64,000 nucleotides of DNA from a virus. The notes beneath the pieces were generated by a model. That model searched no databases, was not told the origin of the DNA, and was given only the letters and a program-made list of their open reading frames with translations. The DNA is taken from the IMG/VR virus record IMGVR_UViG_3300045988_164340, positions 96,001 through 160,000 of that record; one strand, written 5' to 3'. The stretch's first letter is position 1. Each line of letters opens with the position of its first letter. Shown here piece by piece: positions 1-31,897 of the stretch. The position numbers and the translations under genes are program-made.

Positions 1-2
1 CA

Positions 3-680
3 GATGGTTCTGGTTCTATGTGCGCTACTGTTGGTCGTACTCGTATGACTGCACTTGAAGTAGCTAATTCTCTCGCAATTTACTTTGCCGAGCGTGCTAA
101 GGGCGCATACAAGGGTCGTTACATTACTTTCTCTTCCCGTCCTCAGATGGTTAATGTTAATCATGACTCTTTGCGTGCAAACCTTGCCGAAGCTGCCCGT
201 CATAGCGAGGTTTCTAATACCAACCTTGAAGCAGTGTTTGACCTGATTCTTGATACCGCAATTAAGAACCATTCTCCCCAGAGTGATTTGCCCAAGAATA
301 TTCTGATTATCAGTGATGGTGGTTGGGATTCTATGGTAAATATTCGTAATGTTAGCACTGGCAGTGGTTATAGTTATTGGGGCTATAACAGCACTCGTGC
401 TACTGCTAAGGAAGCTCCTGCTTTCCTTAAGTCCATTGAGCAGAAGTATAAGAACGCTGGATATGAGATGCCTATGATTATCTACTGGAATACTACGGGA
501 AATGGTAACACAAATAACGGTCTTCCTATGACCAAGAATGATTATGGTATTATGGTTAGTGGTTTCAGTGTAAATACGCTTAAGATGGTAATGTCTGGTA
601 AAACTAATCCTTGGGATGCGCTTATGGATGTTCTTCTGACTAAGCGTTATGACGCTGTTGAGACTAAGGCTTTTGCCTAA
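3..680 (+). CDS. vWA-domain protein, DUF2828/TROVE-like; 5' end outside window
   Basis: Frame open to window edge; nt 3-20 read DGSGSM (MIDAS DxSxS motif); TAA 678-680 followed by terminator. Confidence 0.6.
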   Translation, partial: DGSGSMCATVGRTRMTALEVANSLAIYFAERAKGAYKGRYITFSSRPQMVNVNHDSLRANLAEAARHSEVSNTNLEAVFDLILDTAIKNHSPQSDLPKNILIISDGGWDSMVNIRNVSTGSGYSYWGYNSTRATAKEAPAFLKSIEQKYKNAGYEMPMIIYWNTTGNGNTNNGLPMTKNDYGIMVSGFSVNTLKMVMSGKTNPWDALMDVLLTKRYDAVETKAFA

Positions 681-3629: not shown

Positions 3630-3658
3630 TTGACAGGAAACTAATCTTATGGTATATT
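3630..3658 (+). promoter_or_regulatory. sigma70-type promoter of large ncRNA
   Basis: TTGACA 3630-3635, 17 nt, TATATT 3653-3658. Confidence 0.7.
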
Positions 3659-3664
3659 AAGATT

Positions 3665-4248
3665 GTCCCAAGGGAAAGGATGAAAAAAGTGCGGAAAGGA
3701 TTCCCACTGATTTGTACTACACAGGCCTGATAGACAAATCACGTTTTTACCTGTAAGACATACAATTGAATATTCAATAATAGCTGAGATGCAATGACTT
3801 CGAAAGAAGCACCCTTCATAGGAATAGGAACTATGAAGATACTAAGAGCGGCAAGCTCTCCATTTGAAAGTTAATGGTGGAAATTCTTGCAAGAATCACG
3901 AAATCCTACCTTCCGAATTCTTGCTCGGTAGTGTAGGTTGATTGCTAACTAAAGATGTTGGACAAAGAGCGTCGCATTTCTTTAAATGCTAGGACCGGAG
4001 GCTCATAGTGAGGTGAACGTTGTCTATTCCTCACCTTTAATAAGAATCCGATGGGGGTCGGAGCGCTTATTATCGTATTTGAATAACCTACGGGTAGGTT
4101 GTTCGCAGTTTTACAGAAGACTTATAAACACTTGTCCGTCGAAATGGGTAGACGCCAGAGGAAAAAGTCTCAATGAGTGTAGGAAGTAATATAACGGGGA
4201 ATAACTTCTAAGTCTTCACAATTTATTGAATTAGCTAATTTAATAAAA
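3665..4248 (+). ncRNA. large structured non-coding RNA, class unknown (ROOL/GOLLD-like size)
   Basis: About 580 nt between consensus promoter and terminator; no credible ORF or SD; visibly G+C-richer than flanks; hairpins 3814-3838, 3845-3859, 3883-3896, 4008-4034, 4085-4100. Confidence 0.6.
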
Positions 4249-4293
4249 GGTCTCATAATTAATTTAATATTGATTATGAGACTATTATTTTTA
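4249..4293 (+). terminator. intrinsic terminator
   Basis: ggtctcataat / attatgagac stem then tattattttt. Confidence 0.65.
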
Positions 4294-4308
4294 TAATAGA
4301 GGTGTAAC

Positions 4309-4794
4309 ATGGAAAATTTCTGGAAGACATCACTGGAAAATAAGAAGAAAGAACTATCTGAGATTAACAAGGATTTAAATAATCTCACAAGAAAATCTTA
4401 TGATGAATATATTATGAAAGAACTCGCTCCAAAGCTGATTGGGAATTGTTATATTCATCGAGGACATTATATTATGATTGTTCAACCTCCCAAATTGTTA
4501 GAAGGAAGATGTGAGGTTAATTATTCTTCTTCATGGGGTTGTATTGAGATTAACAATTTTGAAGATGAAACACCTTATGGTTGTTATACAGATTCAGAAA
4601 TTGATGTAGCTCCTTATTATAATGAAGACATTGATTTGTTTTTCCTTTTAAATTATCCGAAAAATTTTGACCATTTTCAACCTATTTCTCGTAACGAATT
4701 TAATGCAAGAATGGATGAAGCGGTTAGGAAATCTAGGGAACTAATTGAAAAAATGGAGAAAAATATTACTCCTCGCAAATTTTATAGGTTTTAA
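4309..4794 (+). CDS. hypothetical protein
   Basis: Track ORF, GAGGTG SD. Confidence 0.65.
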   Translation: MENFWKTSLENKKKELSEINKDLNNLTRKSYDEYIMKELAPKLIGNCYIHRGHYIMIVQPPKLLEGRCEVNYSSSWGCIEINNFEDETPYGCYTDSEIDVAPYYNEDIDLFFLLNYPKNFDHFQPISRNEFNARMDEAVRKSRELIEKMEKNITPRKFYRF

Positions 4795-4810
4795 GAAAGG
4801 GGAATAAAAT

Positions 4811-5824
4811 ATGTTTTTTAAGAAGCCCGAAAAAAAGGTTGTTCTCGAATATGAATCTTACCCTGCATCTGGTGTAGATTTTGAAGAATCTTCCAGTGAA
4901 TCTTACACAAATAATCTTCCTAACCATACAATTATCGACAATCATACTTGGGAATATGAAAAAATGGAAGATGTTCCTTTTCCTATTGGAGAAGATTGGG
5001 AATGGATTGATTGTTACAAAGCTCTTTATAAGACCTATTACCTTTCTAATGACAAAGTAGAATATGTAGGTCCCAATCAAAACTTTGTATACGAACTTAA
5101 CAGAGTCTATTCCTTACCAGAAGAAGGAGAATTTGGCAAAATTGATTACTGTGGTAATGGTTTTCATGCTTGTTTAACTGTAAAAGATGCTTTAACTTGG
5201 TATAATTACATTTCTTATGATACATTTGCTATTGATAGTTATAACTATGGGGTTGCTGTTAAACTAGTTGTTGTTGCTAAAGCAAAACTTTTAGTTAACA
5301 AAAAAGATTTGGCAAATTGCTATGGTAAAACCAAACTTGACGATGGTAAAGTTGTAGGAAAAGCTATTATCTTAACTGGTTTTGTTAATCCAAAAGAAGT
5401 TTATGATAACCGAAAAGAAGACAGATGTTGGAGCATTGGCGTTCTTAATGGTTACGCTTATGATTATTTAAAAGCCATCTGCAAAAAAGAAGGCATCAAT
5501 CTTAATGTTTTAAAGAAGTTAATCGAAAAGCTTGAAATTACTTGTCCCTACTATGAGAAAATGCTTGGCTTTATTGATGATAAAAATATCTCTACAATGG
5601 CTTATGTTAAGGCTATGTTAGATGCCTACCGTATTAATAGCAAAGAAATTTATCAATGCTTAAATATGAATTACGGCAAAGTATTGACGGAAGAAATCGT
5701 AAACAACCTTGACTATCAATTTGCAATGCGTTTGGCTGATAATGATGATGCTTATAACAGAAGTTTATCTGTAGCAGAAAAGATGCAGATTCTTTATTCT
5801 CATCAGATGCTTTCTAAAAAATAA
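4811..5824 (+). CDS. hypothetical protein
   Basis: Track ORF, AAGGGG SD. Confidence 0.65.
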   Translation: MFFKKPEKKVVLEYESYPASGVDFEESSSESYTNNLPNHTIIDNHTWEYEKMEDVPFPIGEDWEWIDCYKALYKTYYLSNDKVEYVGPNQNFVYELNRVYSLPEEGEFGKIDYCGNGFHACLTVKDALTWYNYISYDTFAIDSYNYGVAVKLVVVAKAKLLVNKKDLANCYGKTKLDDGKVVGKAIILTGFVNPKEVYDNRKEDRCWSIGVLNGYAYDYLKAICKKEGINLNVLKKLIEKLEITCPYYEKMLGFIDDKNISTMAYVKAMLDAYRINSKEIYQCLNMNYGKVLTEEIVNNLDYQFAMRLADNDDAYNRSLSVAEKMQILYSHQMLSKK

Positions 5825-5836
5825 ATTAATAAGTAG

Positions 5837-5865
5837 TTGACAAACTCGAAAGAGTATGCTAATAT
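5837..5865 (+). promoter_or_regulatory. sigma70-type promoter
   Basis: TTGACA 5837-5842, 17 nt, TAATAT 5860-5865. Confidence 0.65.
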
Positions 5866-5871
5866 AATAAT

Positions 5872-5997
5872 AAGAACTGTGGTACAATTTACCTCCTTAT
5901 AATAGACTGGATTTGCTAATAAGGCCACCTCCTTTTTCGTATTTTGTTCATGTTTGTTTCCTCCAAAAACAAATTTTGTACCACAGTTCTTTTTTAT
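5872..5997 (+). ncRNA. about 125-nt hairpin RNA or leader with three CCUCC motifs
   Basis: 14-bp closing stem gaactgtggtacaa / ttgtaccacagttc plus T-run; CCTCC at 5892, 5929 and 5960, the last in a hairpin loop. Confidence 0.5.
5889..5951 (-). CDS. possible 20-residue basic micro-ORF with in-frame TAG (MNKIRKRRWPY*QIQSIIRR)
   Basis: GGAGG, 8 nt, ATG on minus strand inside the hairpin RNA; no minus-strand promoter seen. Confidence 0.25.
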
Positions 5998-6019
5998 TCC
6001 TTTGCAAAGGAGCTTACCA

Positions 6020-6244
6020 ATGAGATTGAATGATGTATCTCTAATAGGTTTTGCTCTTTATCTTTTATGTGGGCTTGCAGTAACATATAATGTTTATAAT
6101 TGTCCTGCTAATAAAAATGATAAAGAAGTAACCTTGTTGCATTATTTAACTTTGATTTTTTGTTGGCCTATTGCTCTTGTTATGGCAGCAATTTATTGGT
6201 TTAAGATTCAAAGTGAAATAAGAAAACAAAAGAAAATTAAATAA
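6020..6244 (+). CDS. small membrane protein
   Basis: ATG 6020 after AAAGGAG; two TM segments. Confidence 0.6.
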   Translation: MRLNDVSLIGFALYLLCGLAVTYNVYNCPANKNDKEVTLLHYLTLIFCWPIALVMAAIYWFKIQSEIRKQKKIK

Positions 6245-6249
6245 AGCTC

Positions 6250-6278
6250 TTGACAACAGACTCTTTTTGGTTTATACT
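6250..6278 (+). promoter_or_regulatory. sigma70-type promoter
   Basis: TTGACA, 17 nt, TATACT 6273-6278. Confidence 0.7.
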
Positions 6279-29328: not shown

Positions 29329-30756
29329 ATGGCTGATTAGAAATAGAGCCTTTATCTTAGAGTTTAGGAAAAATTATCTAATGTTTCTACTGTTAATAGT
29401 TATAAAGAACTTTGTAAATTACTGGACGAACCTGATTATTCTCGTCCTTCAAAAGCTGCTCAACTTAAAAGACAAGAAAAAGAATGGAAGAAATGTTTTA
29501 CATGGAGAAGAAAAAAAGAAAAATATACTTCAATAAAAATAGTTTCTCCTGATGAATATTATTTGGCTATTTTAAAACAGCTTTATCAAAATAGCTCTAT
29601 TTGGGCTTTCTTTTCTTTTTTGAATGTTTATAGTCAATATACTAATAACGCAAGACTTTGTGTTTCTAAAGGAGATATTGCTTTAGCCGTTGGTTTACAA
29701 AATGAAAACTATAAAAATTTTCATGTTTCTTCTTATAGTTACGGTAGAAGATTAGAAGAATATACTTTAGGTTTAAAAGATTCTAAATATCCTTTTGTTA
29801 CTACTCCTAAAAAAGAAATTAGAGAACAAAGAAAAAAAGATGATGAATCTGCTTACGGTTTAACTAAACGTACACAAAATTTACTCGATGATTATGATTC
29901 TCATACTTCTAAGCAAAATTATTATCAAGTTGAATCTATGTTAAACAAACTTGAAGAAGAAGGCGCTATTCTTCTTCATAAAACCTTTGTGGGAGGATTT
30001 ATTGATAAAAAAGCACTTCCTTTTGATGCAGATTATTTAACTATATATGAAGAAAATGGTAATTTTTATTTACCTGTTAAAAATGGAGAACCTTTATTAG
30101 TTACTTATTATGAAAGAGCTTTAACAGATGAAGAATTGGCTAACTTCCTTAACTTGCGTGGTTCTATAATGGTTGATTTAAAATGTCATGGATTATCAGA
30201 AGTTTTCATTTCTGGTCAACAAGATGATTTTAATAAGAAACTTTCTAAATCTTAGTTAATAGAATTTGGTGCTTTATTTATTTACCCTTCTTATTTAATA
30301 AATTATTCTTCTGACCTTGTAGCATTAAATCAATCTTATTATAAAACTCTTATGGCTAATTTTTATAATGAATAGCTACTCAAGAAAAATTTAACAGCTA
30401 ATAATAAAGAAACACAACAAAAAATACTTAAACTAAAAACTGAAAGATAGTCTAAAGAAAAAGGCAAGTGCCGAAATACTTTTACTAAGCATGACGGAAC
30501 TGTTGTATTTTCTGATAAAAAAGAAGAAGAAGCAGTACAGCTTTCGCAATATTATGAAGCTTTCTTATACGAAAAGCTAAATAAAGACCTTATTCAACTT
30601 AATTTAGATAAACTTATACCTCAAAATCTTGAATCTCTTTCTTCTAATTCTACAGAAAAAAGCTCTACTTGGGAAAGCTTGTTTAATAAATCTTGGACTA
30701 AAATTAAAAATACTGAAAATTATTAGAAAAATTAGATTATGGTTCCAGACACATAA
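29329..30756 (+). CDS. 475-residue hypothetical protein containing eight in-frame TAG codons
   Basis: AAAGGAG SD and ATG 29329; TAG at 29338, 29344, 29365, 30253, 30373, 30448, 30724, 30733; no TAA or TGA in frame until TAA 30754; absorbs track ORF 29563-30255. Confidence 0.65.
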
Positions 30757-30812
30757 CTCGTGAGCCTCTTTAATTGTCATTTTTCCCTTGTTTTTCCTAT
30801 ATTTAATTTTCT

Positions 30813-30889
30813 AAAAGTGTCCTGACTTTCGTAAGTATAATAACTATTTATAATAATAGAGAAAGTCAAGACACTTTTAAAATTTTTTT
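30813..30889 (+). terminator. long-stem terminator
   Basis: aaaagtgtcctgactttc / gaaagtcaagacactttt (17 of 18 bp) then aaaattttttt. Confidence 0.6.
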
Positions 30890-30940
30890 AGTAGATAAAA
30901 TAAGGCTTTAATGAACTTTTTAAAGGCTCAAGAGTTTTTA

Positions 30941-31190
30941 CTTCGGCACCGTTATTTTAAAAACCACACGACAGAAAATGAAAGAAAGGTTAGAGTTTGT
31001 TGAAGTGAGCCTTGCGAACGATTACAAACTCTTACTCCTTTCTTCATTTGGCAGTCGTAACCGCGAGAGGATGTTTGCATTATGAAAGAGAGAGCATTAG
31101 CGACGAATGGAGCGTAATGCGACCATCTTTCATAATGATACAAACACCGCATCACGGTGGATTATCGGCGAAGCACCTTTGTAATTATAA
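30941..31190. ncRNA. candidate structured RNA, about 250 nt, strand and class unknown
   Basis: G+C-richer island without SD-led ORF; stems gagtttgt 30993 / acaaactc 31024; cattatgaaaga 31078 / tctttcataatg 31126; tgaaagaaagg / cctttcttca enclosing stem. Confidence 0.4.
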
Positions 31191-31255
31191 ATAGTTACTC
31201 AGAAGTACCATTGTATACTTTTCTTAGTTTTTATTATCTTTTTCTTATTAAACTA

Positions 31256-31284
31256 TTGACTTTTTGCTCTATATCTGTTATTAT
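31256..31284 (+). promoter_or_regulatory. sigma70-type promoter
   Basis: TTGACT, 17 nt, TATTAT. Confidence 0.6.
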
Positions 31285-31422
31285 ATCTATGCTGAGAAAG
31301 ATAATTGATAAAATATAAATATCTATCTTTCGTAACACCAAAATTCTGGAAGTTCTTATGTGAAGTGGAGTGCTTGCACGAACACTGAACTTAGAACTTC
31401 CCCTGTGAATGGAGTTTGTATT

Positions 31423-31575
31423 ATGAAAAATATTAAGTTGAATTCTTCTCTACAATATAAAAATAAGAAATATAAAATTAAATTTATTAGACAATTAAGA
31501 TATAATATGCTTGTAGATGTTACTGCATTTTATGGTTATAAAGCTAATCTAAATACTCTTTTAAAGGAAGTGTAA
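31423..31575 (+). CDS. small protein, paralog of the N-terminus of the next gene
   Basis: ATG 31423 after GGAG; MKNIKLNSSLQYKNKKYKIKF versus MKSMKLNTSAKYKNNKFQIKY. Confidence 0.55.
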   Translation: MKNIKLNSSLQYKNKKYKIKFIRQLRYNMLVDVTAFYGYKANLNTLLKEV

Positions 31576-31579
31576 TATT

Positions 31580-31897
31580 ATGAAGTCTATGAAGCTTAAT
31601 ACCTCTGCTAAATATAAAAACAATAAGTTCCAGATTAAGTATCTTAAATATGAGAGATATAATATGGTCTTATTTGCCACTTACTCTACAGGATATAATA
31701 ACGATAATGTTTTTTTACATAGATACGAGCCTTTTATCTATTTTAATAGAACTTCAAGAACTCTTCATTATGTAAGTGATATTGACTATATTACTTACTA
31801 TGGTGCTGATATTAATATTAGACCTCTTATGATTCGCTTTGGTATTAATGCTTGGAGATATCTTACTCAGGAATATAATGAGAATAATCATGAGTAA
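31580..31897 (+). CDS. hypothetical protein
   Basis: AAAGGAAG SD. Confidence 0.6.
   Translation: MKSMKLNTSAKYKNNKFQIKYLKYERYNMVLFATYSTGYNNDNVFLHRYEPFIYFNRTSRTLHYVSDIDYITYYGADINIRPLMIRFGINAWRYLTQEYNENNHE

What the first reader, a model, noticed from the sequence alone, without database searches (positions are those of the whole stretch)
3630..4293. Stand-alone transcription unit of about 600 nt for a large, highly structured non-coding RNA
A consensus promoter (TTGACA-N17-TATATT, 3630-3658) and a strong terminator (4249-4293) bracket about 580 nt. The segment has no SD-led ORF, is visibly richer in G+C than the flanks, and contains many local helices (3814-3838, 3845-3859, 3883-3896, 4008-4034, 4085-4100). 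I could not recognise RNase P, tmRNA, 6S or group I intron cores. The size, ornate folding and phage context recall the ROOL and GOLLD classes of giant RNAs found in Firmicute prophages. I cannot confirm membership by eye.
Basis: partly seen in the sequence, partly recalled or inferred. Interest (0 to 1): 0.66.

Follow-up and report, generated by a model that had tools for sequence, protein, structure and literature searches.

The report
New large structured RNA in gut jumbo phages
A 625-base stretch of a human-gut jumbo phage is made into a highly folded RNA that does not code for protein and matches no catalogued RNA family; such large structured RNAs are rare, and what this one does is still unknown.

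Summary
A near-consensus promoter (3630-3658) and a strong terminator (4249-4293) bracket about 625 nt that are richer in G+C than the flanks, lack a conserved ORF, and fold far better than shuffled sequence (z = -5.7).

Forty-one related copies (33 distinct) were recovered from human-gut jumbo-phage contigs. They keep about 21 helices through compensatory changes. Hairpins are swapped, inserted or deleted as units. Substitutions show no codon periodicity, although the flanking genes show it strongly. So this is a real structured RNA read from the + strand.

No Rfam 15 family matches, including ROOL, GOLLD, OLE, raiA, introns, RNase P and pRNA. It is a new family, not a ROOL or GOLLD member.

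The RNA has three parts:
- a variable, decorated 5' two-thirds;
- a 97-nt three-helix module present in one to three tandem copies;
- an almost invariant 180-nt 3' core.

One related phage lacks the RNA and has the same promoter directly in front of the downstream gene. The RNA plus terminator is therefore an optional cassette in the leader of an early operon.

Function is inferred only. The most likely role is a trans-acting scaffold or decoy RNA. A cis-acting attenuator and an RNA-only oligomer are the main rivals.

The parts
3630..3658 (+). Early promoter of the sigma-70/sigma-A type: TTGACA, 17-nt spacer ending in TG, TATATT.
   Evidence: 11 of 12, TG present. Both hexamers are invariant and the spacer is variable in 28 distinct homologues. 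It is one of 26 such sites in the window against 3.2 expected. The RNA-less relative L099 retains it.
3665..4290 (+). Body of the non-coding RNA, about 625 nt. The 5' end is inferred as about 7 nt after the -10 hexamer, and the 3' end as lying in the U-tract. Homologues are 635-853 nt when measured from window position 3661 to 4296.
   Evidence: MFE z = -5.66. 145 curated pairs are 98.1% paired in 28 sequences, against 36-45% when the partners are slid. No codon periodicity: 52/55/53, p = 0.96. All three stop codons occur in all six frames.
3689..3939 (+). Variable, decorated 5' domain made of serial stem-loops: Ha 3689-3707, Hb 3709-3740, Hc 3745-3758, Hd 3765-3778, Hf 3795-3811, Hg 3814-3838, Hh 3846-3858, Hi 3859-3881, Hj 3883-3896, and Hk 3902-3939 enclosing Hl 3910-3931.
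   Evidence: Coordinates. Ha, Hb, Hc, Hg, Hh, Hi and Hl show changes on both sides of a pair. Elements are swapped as units: the GAAA loop of Hf is replaced by a 27-30-nt helix extension, Hi is absent in 7 sequences, and Ha is extended by about 45-52 nt in 4 sequences.
3939..4035 (+). Three-helix module of 97 nt. It consists of hairpin H1 (3942-3965), stem H2 (GAGC/GCUC, 3967-4004) enclosing the hypervariable hairpin H2b (3974-3989), and hairpin H3 (4008-4034). The window has one copy; homologues have one to three tandem copies.
   Evidence: 22 distinct copies are 97.4% paired against 38-46% when slid. Nine of 23 pairs change on both sides, and the covariation score is 0.296 against at most 0.115. 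Model R1 finds a single hit in the window (110.6 bits). Copy-number variants are shown.
4038..4217 (+). Nearly invariant 3' core. Hm (4038-4072) encloses Hn (4047-4062). Then come junction UCGUAUUU, Ho (4081-4104) and junction GCAGUUUUACA. Hp (4116-4217) encloses Hq (4129-4179), a short hairpin that exists in two alternative forms, and Hs (4182-4209).
   Evidence: 4001-4100 is 98.5% identical across 13 loci, among the most conserved 100-nt blocks in 10 kb. Only 13% of stem positions and 27% of loop positions vary, against 40% and 49% in the 5' domain. The one variable Hn pair is compensatory: U:A becomes C:G in 3 sequences.
4222..4247 (+). AU-rich hairpin Ht (11 bp, AGCU loop) just before the terminator.
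   Evidence: All changes are wobble-compatible, and it lies within a 12-nt palindrome.
4249..4293 (+). Intrinsic terminator: 15-bp stem, 5-nt loop and U-tract.
   Evidence: It is conserved in every RNA-carrying locus, with one-sided wobble changes only. Its G+C-rich stem base is absent from the RNA-less relative.
4299..4311 (+). Shine-Dalgarno GAGGTG and the ATG of the first downstream gene (4309-4794). This gene has no consensus promoter of its own.
   Evidence: the next consensus promoter is at 6250. In L099 the same SD and ATG follow the promoter after about 50 nt.

Best explanation
SHOWN: window 3665-4290 (+) is the gene for a structured non-coding RNA that matches no catalogued family. 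It is conserved in one clade of human-gut jumbo phages.

A promoter of the host sigma-70/sigma-A type lies in an early region that is full of such promoters. A strong intrinsic terminator follows the RNA. The RNA plus terminator forms an optional cassette between an early-operon promoter and the operon's first gene.

The RNA folds into about 21 helices arranged mostly in series. It has three parts:
- a fast-evolving, modularly decorated 5' domain;
- a 97-nt three-helix module in one to three tandem copies;
- an almost invariant 180-nt 3' core.

INFERRED: host RNA polymerase transcribes it early, and the terminator releases the RNA as a discrete, probably abundant species. It most likely works in trans as a scaffold or decoy. 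In this model the invariant core and the repeated modules bind a protein or RNA partner, as an accessory host-takeover or counter-defence function. As a side effect, the terminator limits read-through into genes 4309-6244.

My confidence that it is a real structured ncRNA is about 0.9. My confidence in the trans-acting scaffold/decoy mechanism is about 0.4.
For: Transcription signals.

Structure:
- MFE z = -5.66 on the + strand against -2.56 on the - strand.
- 17 of 145 pairs change on both sides, against 7.7 +/- 1.8 in shuffles (0 of 500 reach 17) and 1-6 in slid controls.
- The module's helices covary.
- More divergent copies add compensatory changes in Hn and H3.
- 274 G-U cells against 29 A-C cells fix the transcribed strand.

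Not coding:
- The start codon is missing in 11 of 28 sequences, and there are frameshifting indels and in-frame stops.
- No 3-nt periodicity, whereas four flanking genes show p = 1e-8 to 3e-3.
- All stop codon types occur in all frames.

Accessory cassette: relative L099/L102 keeps the promoter and the downstream genes but has a 78-nt gap instead of the RNA.

Modular, repeat-bearing and fast-evolving 5' part against an invariant core.

Too large and ornate for known attenuators, and the invariant part is not adjacent to the terminator.
Against: There is no expression data.

No partner has been identified. The nearest RNA-related gene encodes a Ro-like DUF2828+vWA protein, annotated 'RNA-binding' in PHROGs. 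It lies 3 kb upstream behind another promoter, and the link is untested.

The family is narrow: mean identity is 92% and it occupies one phage clade. The invariant core therefore has almost no covariation to test, and its conservation could partly reflect recent ancestry.

Its position inside an operon leader is equally what a cis-regulator would show.

One short contig (L098) lacks the whole core, so either the core is dispensable or that copy is decaying or misassembled.
Confidence: 0.45

Rival explanations
1. It is a cis-acting leader or attenuator. The folded RNA senses a metabolite, protein, tRNA or the polymerase itself. It thereby sets how often the terminator at 4249-4293 is read through into the early operon 4309-6244. 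The mechanism would be riboswitch-like or put/nut-like antitermination.
For: The RNA lies exactly between the operon promoter and the first gene. The RNA-less relative has the same promoter directly in front of that gene. No other consensus promoter occurs before 6250. The only weaker candidate (4270-4297) would start transcription at or after the Shine-Dalgarno. Expression of the downstream genes therefore needs read-through.
Against: The RNA is 625-853 nt with about 21 helices, several times larger than known attenuators. I found no terminator/antiterminator alternative with support. The best candidate is the 5' strand of Ht pairing with the AU-rich upper terminator, seen by eye only, and it is low-complexity sequence. 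The invariant core is separated from the terminator by Ht. Module copy number and hairpin decorations vary freely. The operon exists without the RNA in L099.
Confidence: 0.25
2. It is an RNA-only homo-oligomeric assembly, analogous to ROOL, GOLLD and OLE. Palindromic hairpins or loops would join several copies into a defined multimer.
For: There are three perfect palindromes of at least 12 nt: ATTGAATATTCAAT at 3765, ATTCTTGCAAGAAT at 3883 and AATTAGCTAATT at 4229. Only 0.22 are expected (p about 0.004). Each is a hairpin with a self-complementary tetraloop that could also form an intermolecular duplex. An 8-nt palindrome (CAGGCCUG, 3722) sits in the 20-nt loop of Hb. The two variants of the 3883 palindrome are wobble-compatible in RNA. 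ROOL, GOLLD and OLE form homo-oligomers (PMC12286853).
Against: The palindromes are equally explained as ordinary hairpins. There is no covariation for any intermolecular contact. There is no sequence or structural similarity to ROOL or GOLLD. The supported fold is serial hairpins, not the nested junctions of those RNAs.
Confidence: 0.15
3. It is a ribozyme, or an RNA with another catalytic or processing function, located in the invariant 3' core.
For: About 180 nt are extremely conserved in sequence, including junction strands. This is typical of active sites. The large size also fits.
Against: No match to any ribozyme or intron model was found. No processing-site signature or substrate is evident. 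I noticed a resemblance to RNase P CR-I/CR-V strings, but they occur in the wrong order and are explained by helix Hp.
Confidence: 0.07
4. It is not an RNA gene. Instead it is a decayed or recoded protein gene, or a DNA-level element such as an origin or operator palindromes.
For: A 67-aa ORF exists at 3986-4189. This phage group does contain a gene with 11 in-frame TAG codons. The DNA contains 14-bp perfect palindromes.
Against: The ORF is not conserved. There is no periodicity. TAA, TAG and TGA occur in all six frames. Indels are not multiples of three. Compensatory and G-U-tolerant changes are specific to the + strand, with 274 G-U cells against 29 A-C cells. The variants of the palindrome break DNA symmetry but keep RNA pairing.
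Confidence: 0.03

Closest known systems
ROOL RNA (Rfam RF03087)
   Same: Similar size (ROOL averages 581 nt). Both occur in phage-associated DNA of anaerobic gut or rumen communities, both have many helices, and the function of both is unknown.
   Different: No covariance-model match even at E <= 10. ROOL has six multi-stem junctions and three pseudoknots and often lies near tRNA genes (PMC5737381). Here the supported helices are mostly serial, no pseudoknot is supported, and there is no tRNA within 64 kb.
GOLLD RNA (Rfam RF01998 clan of large ornate RNAs)
   Same: Both are large phage-borne structured RNAs with variable peripheral elements. The longest variants here (853 nt) reach GOLLD size.
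   Different: No model match, no nearby tRNAs and no similarity in architecture.
Sponge or scaffold RNAs built from repeated modules (CsrB/RsmZ type; ToxI-type repeat RNAs)
   Same: It carries a repeated structural unit whose copy number differs between strains. This is the hallmark of RNAs that titrate several copies of one partner.
   Different: The unit is a 97-nt three-helix domain, not a short GGA hairpin or a 36-nt direct repeat. GGA motifs are not enriched (by my own count, about 14 against about 10 expected). No cognate toxin or CsrA-like gene is adjacent.
Phage leader RNAs that act on transcription (HK022 put, lambda nut, riboswitch attenuators)
   Same: Its position is the same: directly after an early promoter, before a terminator and the rest of the operon.
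   Different: It is five to ten times larger. No antiterminator alternative was found. Close relatives can lack it.
Y RNA with Ro60/Rsr (TROVE + vWA) proteins
   Same: A DUF2828 + vWA protein lies 3 kb upstream (PHROG 'RNA-binding protein'; the Ro-like reading is my inference from its architecture). Ro-family proteins work with a dedicated structured RNA encoded nearby.
   Different: Y RNAs are about 100 nt. There is no Rfam Y_RNA or YrlA match. The two genes lie behind separate promoters. No co-variation of presence and absence could be tested.
phi29 pRNA
   Same: Both are phage-encoded structured RNAs made from an early promoter with their own terminator, and both have potential intermolecular loop contacts.
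   Different: pRNA is 174 nt and there is no model match. Packaging in jumbo phages is not known to need RNA.

Membership tests
ROOL RNA | Scores against the Rfam ROOL covariance model | tested here: not met
   No match at gathering score in the window. No ROOL match at E <= 10 with permissive filters on the 901-nt region or on the 853-nt variant.
ROOL RNA | Architecture of six multi-stem junctions and three pseudoknots (PMC5737381) | tested here: not met
   The curated, covariation-supported structure is about 21 mostly serial helices with three enclosing stems. A scan for long-range helices found none with support beyond chance.
ROOL / GOLLD | Frequent proximity to tRNA genes or location in a prophage | tested here: not met
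   No tRNA or tmRNA in the 64-kb window or in five flanking loci. The contigs are phage genomes of 108-220 kb, and no integrase or attachment context was seen.
GOLLD, OLE, raiA, HEARO | Scores against the respective Rfam model | tested here: not met
Group I / group II introns, RNase P, tmRNA, 6S, SRP, pRNA, Y RNA | Scores against the respective Rfam model | tested here: not met
   ARAGORN also finds no tmRNA.
Structured non-coding RNA (generic) | Base pairs maintained by compensatory substitutions above controls | tested here: met
   17 pairs change on both sides, against 7.7 +/- 1.8 in shuffles and 1-6 when slid; 9 of 23 pairs in the module; new compensatory pairs in Hn and H3.
Structured non-coding RNA (generic) | No conserved reading frame | tested here: met
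Structured non-coding RNA (generic) | A stable transcript exists | not testable with these tools
   No transcriptome data are available. Only the conserved promoter and terminator support it.
Cis-regulatory attenuator / riboswitch | Lies in the 5' leader of the regulated gene, followed by a terminator | tested here: met
Cis-regulatory attenuator / riboswitch | Conserved, mutually exclusive antiterminator pairing | tested here: inconclusive
   By inspection of the sequence, only a low-complexity AU-rich alternative exists (5' strand of Ht with the upper terminator). It has no covariation.
Repeat-based sponge or antitoxin RNA (CsrB, ToxI) | Tandem repeats of a short binding unit, plus a cognate binding-protein gene | tested here: not met
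   The repeats are 97-nt domains in one to three copies. No adjacent protein has a recognisable family.

The most novel reading that the evidence does not exclude
This is the founding member of a new class of giant modular phage RNAs. In this reading, the invariant 180-nt core is a functional centre (catalytic or a specific binding site). The copy-number-variable 97-nt modules and palindromic hairpins drive assembly into a multimeric RNA or RNP particle. The phage would use that particle early in infection to neutralise a host defence or capture a host factor.
Probability: 0.25. Interest if true: 0.85.

Novelty: new variant of a known kind. Interest (0 to 1): 0.62.

Why it matters
Structured bacterial or phage RNAs longer than 500 nt are very few: rRNAs, group II introns, GOLLD, ROOL, OLE and HEARO. 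Each has opened new biochemistry or structural biology.

This one offers features that make it experimentally tractable:
- natural length variants from 635 to 853 nt;
- a module present in one to three copies;
- a natural RNA-less relative;
- an invariant core.

These give ready-made constructs for cryo-EM, for partner pull-downs and for comparisons of phages with and without the RNA. It also shows that abundant human-gut jumbo phages carry large RNA genes that current RNA-family libraries do not detect.

Tried and rejected
**Searches that found nothing beyond the clade**
- Rfam at gathering score and at E <= 10 found nothing relevant.
- INPHARED phages gave no match with blastn on the RNA or megablast on 12 kb.
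- Exact or degenerate core patterns found only the same clade in IMG/VR, metagenomes and GTDB genomes. All other pattern hits were chance matches in unrelated sequence, including two Clostridia MAG contigs.
- Protein-anchored searches with the downstream 161-aa protein and with the DUF2828 protein found the same 15 IMG/VR contigs. The 161-aa protein has no relative below 78% identity among 5.8 billion proteins.
- No paralogous copies exist. The module model R1 and an nhmmer profile of the core find one copy per locus.

**Structural ideas dropped**
- RNAalifold proposed long-range closing helices: the 5' end with GCAGUU, GAUUUGCACUAC with GUAGUGUAGGUU, and the 5' leader GGGAAAGGAUGA with the H3 loop. 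All were dropped because their variants break the pairs, or because local hairpins carry the true compensatory changes.
- Pairing of CUGUAAGAC (Hc) with GUUUUACAG was dropped because five or more sequences give C-A mismatches.
- RNase P-like strings (ACAGAAGACUUAU and GGGAAAGUUUCA) occur in the wrong order and are explained by helix Hp.
- The 10-nt identity to the sarcin-ricin loop strand (AGGACCGGAG) is expected by chance and absent from most homologues.
- A C/D-box-like GGAUGA...CUGA was dropped because the CUGA is not conserved.
- CsrA-type GGA enrichment is absent.

**Coding and neighbours**
- Short leader ORFs (a 13-codon GTG ORF) are not conserved where Ha is extended.
- TAG recoding cannot open a frame across the RNA.
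- PDB sequence searches of the neighbouring proteins were uninformative.
- Literature searches found no description of this RNA.

Full report
**1. The observation**

- The promoter at 3630-3658 (TTGACA, 17 nt ending in TG, TATATT) matches 11 of 12 consensus positions. It is the best site between 2500 and 5500.
- A 15-bp stem at 4249-4283 followed by a U-rich tail is the strongest terminator-like site there. The region has 5 such sites against 1.3 expected.
- G+C rises to 0.42-0.435 at 3801-4200, against 0.24-0.35 on either side. Comparable peaks occur inside coding regions elsewhere, so composition alone proves nothing.
- Only two ORFs of at least 30 aa overlap the interval.
- The + strand folds at -176.2 kcal/mol, against -144.9 +/- 5.5 for dinucleotide shuffles (z = -5.66). 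The - strand gives z = -2.56.

**2. Known families**

Rfam 15 (4227 models) gives no match at gathering score anywhere in the window. With permissive filters and E <= 10 there is still nothing relevant, either on the 901-nt region or on the longest homologue. ARAGORN finds no tRNA or tmRNA in the window or in five flanking loci.

The RNA is therefore not ROOL, GOLLD, OLE, raiA, HEARO, an intron, RNase P, 6S, SRP, pRNA or a Y RNA by the standard test. Literature searches found no description of it.

**3. Homologues**

The INPHARED collection of deposited phage genomes has nothing similar.

- The downstream 161-aa protein led to 15 IMG/VR contigs of 108-220 kb. Fourteen come from one metagenome and one from a second. 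All carry the RNA directly upstream, at 76-98% identity.
- A core pattern found 24 more loci in human-gut metagenome assemblies, 20 of them full length.
- Look-ups by protein added five more divergent distinct copies, with whole-query blastn matches at 82-83% identity.
- In total this gives 41 full-length copies. They comprise 33 distinct sequences of 635-853 nt.

The family looks narrow. The flanking protein has only eight cluster representatives in 5.8 billion proteins, none below 78% identity. The DUF2828 gene finds the same 15 contigs. In GTDB genomes the only true hit is one of these phage contigs, binned as 'uncultured Clostridium sp.'. That label is a weak hint of a Clostridia host. The extended -10 promoters are consistent with it.

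**4. It is a structured RNA and not a gene for protein**

I curated 21 helices (145 pairs) and counted them on the 28-sequence alignment.

| Measure | Curated structure | Shuffled control | Slid partners |
|---|---|---|---|
| Cells forming a standard pair | 98.1% | 96.9% | 36-45% |
| Pairs changed on both sides | 17 | 7.7 +/- 1.8 (0 of 500 reach 17) | 1-6 |
| Covariation score | 0.091 | 0.068 | at most 0.033 |

Further points on structure:
- The more divergent copies add compensatory changes in Hn (U:A to C:G) and H3.
- Whole hairpins are exchanged as units. A GAAA tetraloop is replaced by a 27-30-nt helix extension. Hairpin Hi is absent in seven sequences, together with a compensated change in its neighbour Hh. 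Ha is extended by about 45-52 nt in four sequences.
- G-U cells outnumber A-C cells 274 to 29, so the + strand is the one that folds.

Evidence against coding:
- The 67-aa ORF loses its start codon in 11 of 28 sequences and suffers 1-nt, 8-nt and 88-nt indels and in-frame stops.
- Variable sites in the RNA fall 52/55/53 over the three phases (p = 0.96). Four flanking genes show a third-position excess with p between 1e-8 and 3e-3.
- TAA, TAG and TGA each occur in all six frames. This matters because this phage group contains a gene full of in-frame TAG codons (section 9).

**5. Anatomy** (coordinates)

*(a) The 5' domain.* After a purine-rich 5' leader come serial stem-loops Ha to Hl (3689-3939). 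About 40% of stem positions and 49% of loop positions vary here.

*(b) The 97-nt module (3939-4035).* It consists of hairpin H1, a GAGC/GCUC stem enclosing the hypervariable hairpin H2b, and hairpin H3.
- In 22 distinct copies, 97.4% of cells are paired against 38-46% when slid. Nine of 23 pairs change on both sides.
- The window has one copy. Other phages have two or three in tandem, sometimes with a nested elaboration.
- The string AAGAGCG...GCUC recurs at Hh, and the order Hg-Hh-Hi mirrors H1-H2-H3. This suggests growth by tandem duplication. It is seen in the sequence only and is not statistically supported.

*(c) The 3' core (4038-4217).* It consists of Hm enclosing Hn, Ho, and Hp enclosing Hq, Hs and a small hairpin that exists in two alternative forms.
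- It is almost invariant. Positions 4001-4100 are 98.5% identical across 13 loci.
- Only 13% of its stem positions vary.
- Because it hardly varies, its helices rest on thermodynamic prediction plus one compensatory pair.

*(d) The 3' end.* Hairpin Ht and the terminator follow.

No long-range helix or pseudoknot gained support.

Three perfect palindromes of 12-14 nt occur where 0.22 are expected (p about 0.004). Each is a hairpin with a self-complementary tetraloop. The two natural variants of one of them keep RNA pairing through G-U.

**6. Genomic setting**

TTGACA-N17-TATAHT sites number 26 in the window against 3.2 expected. Fourteen lie on the + strand between 700 and 37,000 and sit between ORFs there, which marks an early region read by host polymerase. 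After 3630 the next such promoter is at 6250. Genes 4309-6244 therefore have none of their own.

The decisive comparison is a relative whose flanking proteins are about 78% identical (L099/L102).
- It has the same promoter (TTGACA, 17 nt, TACATT), and the same Shine-Dalgarno and start codon about 50 nt downstream of it.
- It has no RNA and no G+C-rich terminator stem.
- The RNA plus terminator is thus an optional cassette in the leader of an early operon. The operon can be expressed without it.

A 1-kb contig (L098) carries a version that lacks the 3' part of the module and the whole core. It needs confirmation.

**7. How it probably works**

Shown:
- It is a conserved, structured, non-coding sequence whose folding strand is the + strand.
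- It is flanked by conserved transcription signals.
- It is optional among relatives.
- It has a fast-evolving, repeat-bearing periphery and an invariant core.

Inferred:
- The terminator releases it as a discrete early RNA, with partial read-through feeding the downstream genes.
- An early, accessory, rapidly diversifying element with a copy-number-variable binding-type module fits best with a trans-acting scaffold or decoy. It would engage a protein or RNA partner for host takeover or counter-defence. I put this at about 0.4.

The rivals are:
- a cis-acting attenuator (about 0.25), favoured by position but disfavoured by size, modularity and dispensability;
- an RNA-only oligomer like ROOL, GOLLD and OLE (about 0.15), hinted at by the palindromic hairpins (PMC12286853);
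- a ribozyme (about 0.07);
- a coding or DNA-level element (about 0.03).

A DUF2828 + vWA protein is encoded 3 kb upstream. PHROGs annotates it as 'RNA-binding', and I read its architecture as Ro-like. It is a candidate partner, but nothing links the two beyond proximity.

**8. Comparison and novelty**

The RNA resembles ROOL and GOLLD in kind: it is large, ornate, phage-borne and of unknown function. It fails every membership feature I could test (model score, junction and pseudoknot architecture, tRNA proximity).

I file it as a new family within the known kind 'large structured phage RNAs'. I rate interest at about 0.6 for these reasons:
- RNAs of this size are rare and have repeatedly led to new biology.
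- The natural variants make it tractable.
- Against that, the family is confined to one phage clade, covariation in the core is untestable so far, and function is conjecture.

**9. Seen in passing**

- Several relatives carry a 1.4-kb insertion after the DUF2828 gene. It reads as a 447-codon protein with four DUF4379 zinc-finger repeats only if 11 in-frame TAG codons are translated.
- A TnpB-like gene lies at 20860-22179, followed by an ORF-free stretch that contains a G+C peak.
- A second ORF-poor, strongly folding stretch lies at 30255-31580.

Noticed in passing
L002 1099-2436 (also in L005, L006, L088 and others; absent from the window between 680 and 726): A 1.4-kb insertion lies between the DUF2828 gene and the next gene. 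Under the standard code it has no ORF of at least 60 aa. One frame reads 447 codons with 11 in-frame TAG, no TGA, and a TAA at the end. With TAG read as Q it has four DUF4379 treble-clef zinc-finger repeats (E = 1e-56). This is a homing-endonuclease-like gene that implies TAG recoding or suppression in this phage group. In the window, TAG ends only 5 of 56 ORFs of at least 100 aa.
   Followed up: partly
window 20860-22590: A TnpB-like gene lies at 20860-22179 (OrfB_IS605 and Cas12f1-like TNB domains; PHROG 'transposase'). It is followed by an ORF-free stretch, 22180-22590, that contains a G+C peak at 22351-22551. This stretch is a candidate omega/reRNA. Rfam gave no match.
   Followed up: partly
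window 30255-31580: A 1.3-kb stretch has no standard-code ORF above 71 aa. Positions 30270-31250 fold with z = -6.3 on both strands and contain a long near-perfect inverted repeat (about 30830-30900). Part of it (to 30756) becomes an extension of ORF 29563-30255 if TAG is read through. It could be a second non-coding element or a recoded gene.
   Followed up: partly
window 700-37000, + strand: Sites matching TTGACA-N17-TATAHT, mostly with an extended -10 TG, number 26 in the window against 3.2 expected. Fourteen lie on the + strand in this stretch and sit between ORFs. This suggests a long early region transcribed by host sigma-70/sigma-A polymerase, which would fit a Firmicute-type host.
   Followed up: partly
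window 1-680 (complete in L001 587-2356): A 589-aa DUF2828 + DUF7788/vWA protein (PHROG 850 'RNA-binding protein'), whose architecture I read as Ro/TROVE-like, lies 3 kb upstream of the RNA. It is a possible protein partner. The PDB sequence search was uninformative.
   Followed up: partly
L099/L102 1503-1580 and L098 1-240: Natural variants exist. One relative lacks the RNA altogether: the promoter is followed after about 50 nt by the Shine-Dalgarno and start codon of the downstream gene. A 1-kb contig lacks the 3' part of the module and the invariant core. The second may be an assembly artefact.
   Followed up: partly
L072 (GTDB species representative 'uncultured Clostridium sp. UMGS1616', contig of 123,382 nt): A phage contig with the same length as IMG/VR contig 3300045988_166421, and with identical RNA blast matches, sits inside a bacterial MAG that serves as a species representative. 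This is either a binning artefact or a hint of the host.
   Followed up: no
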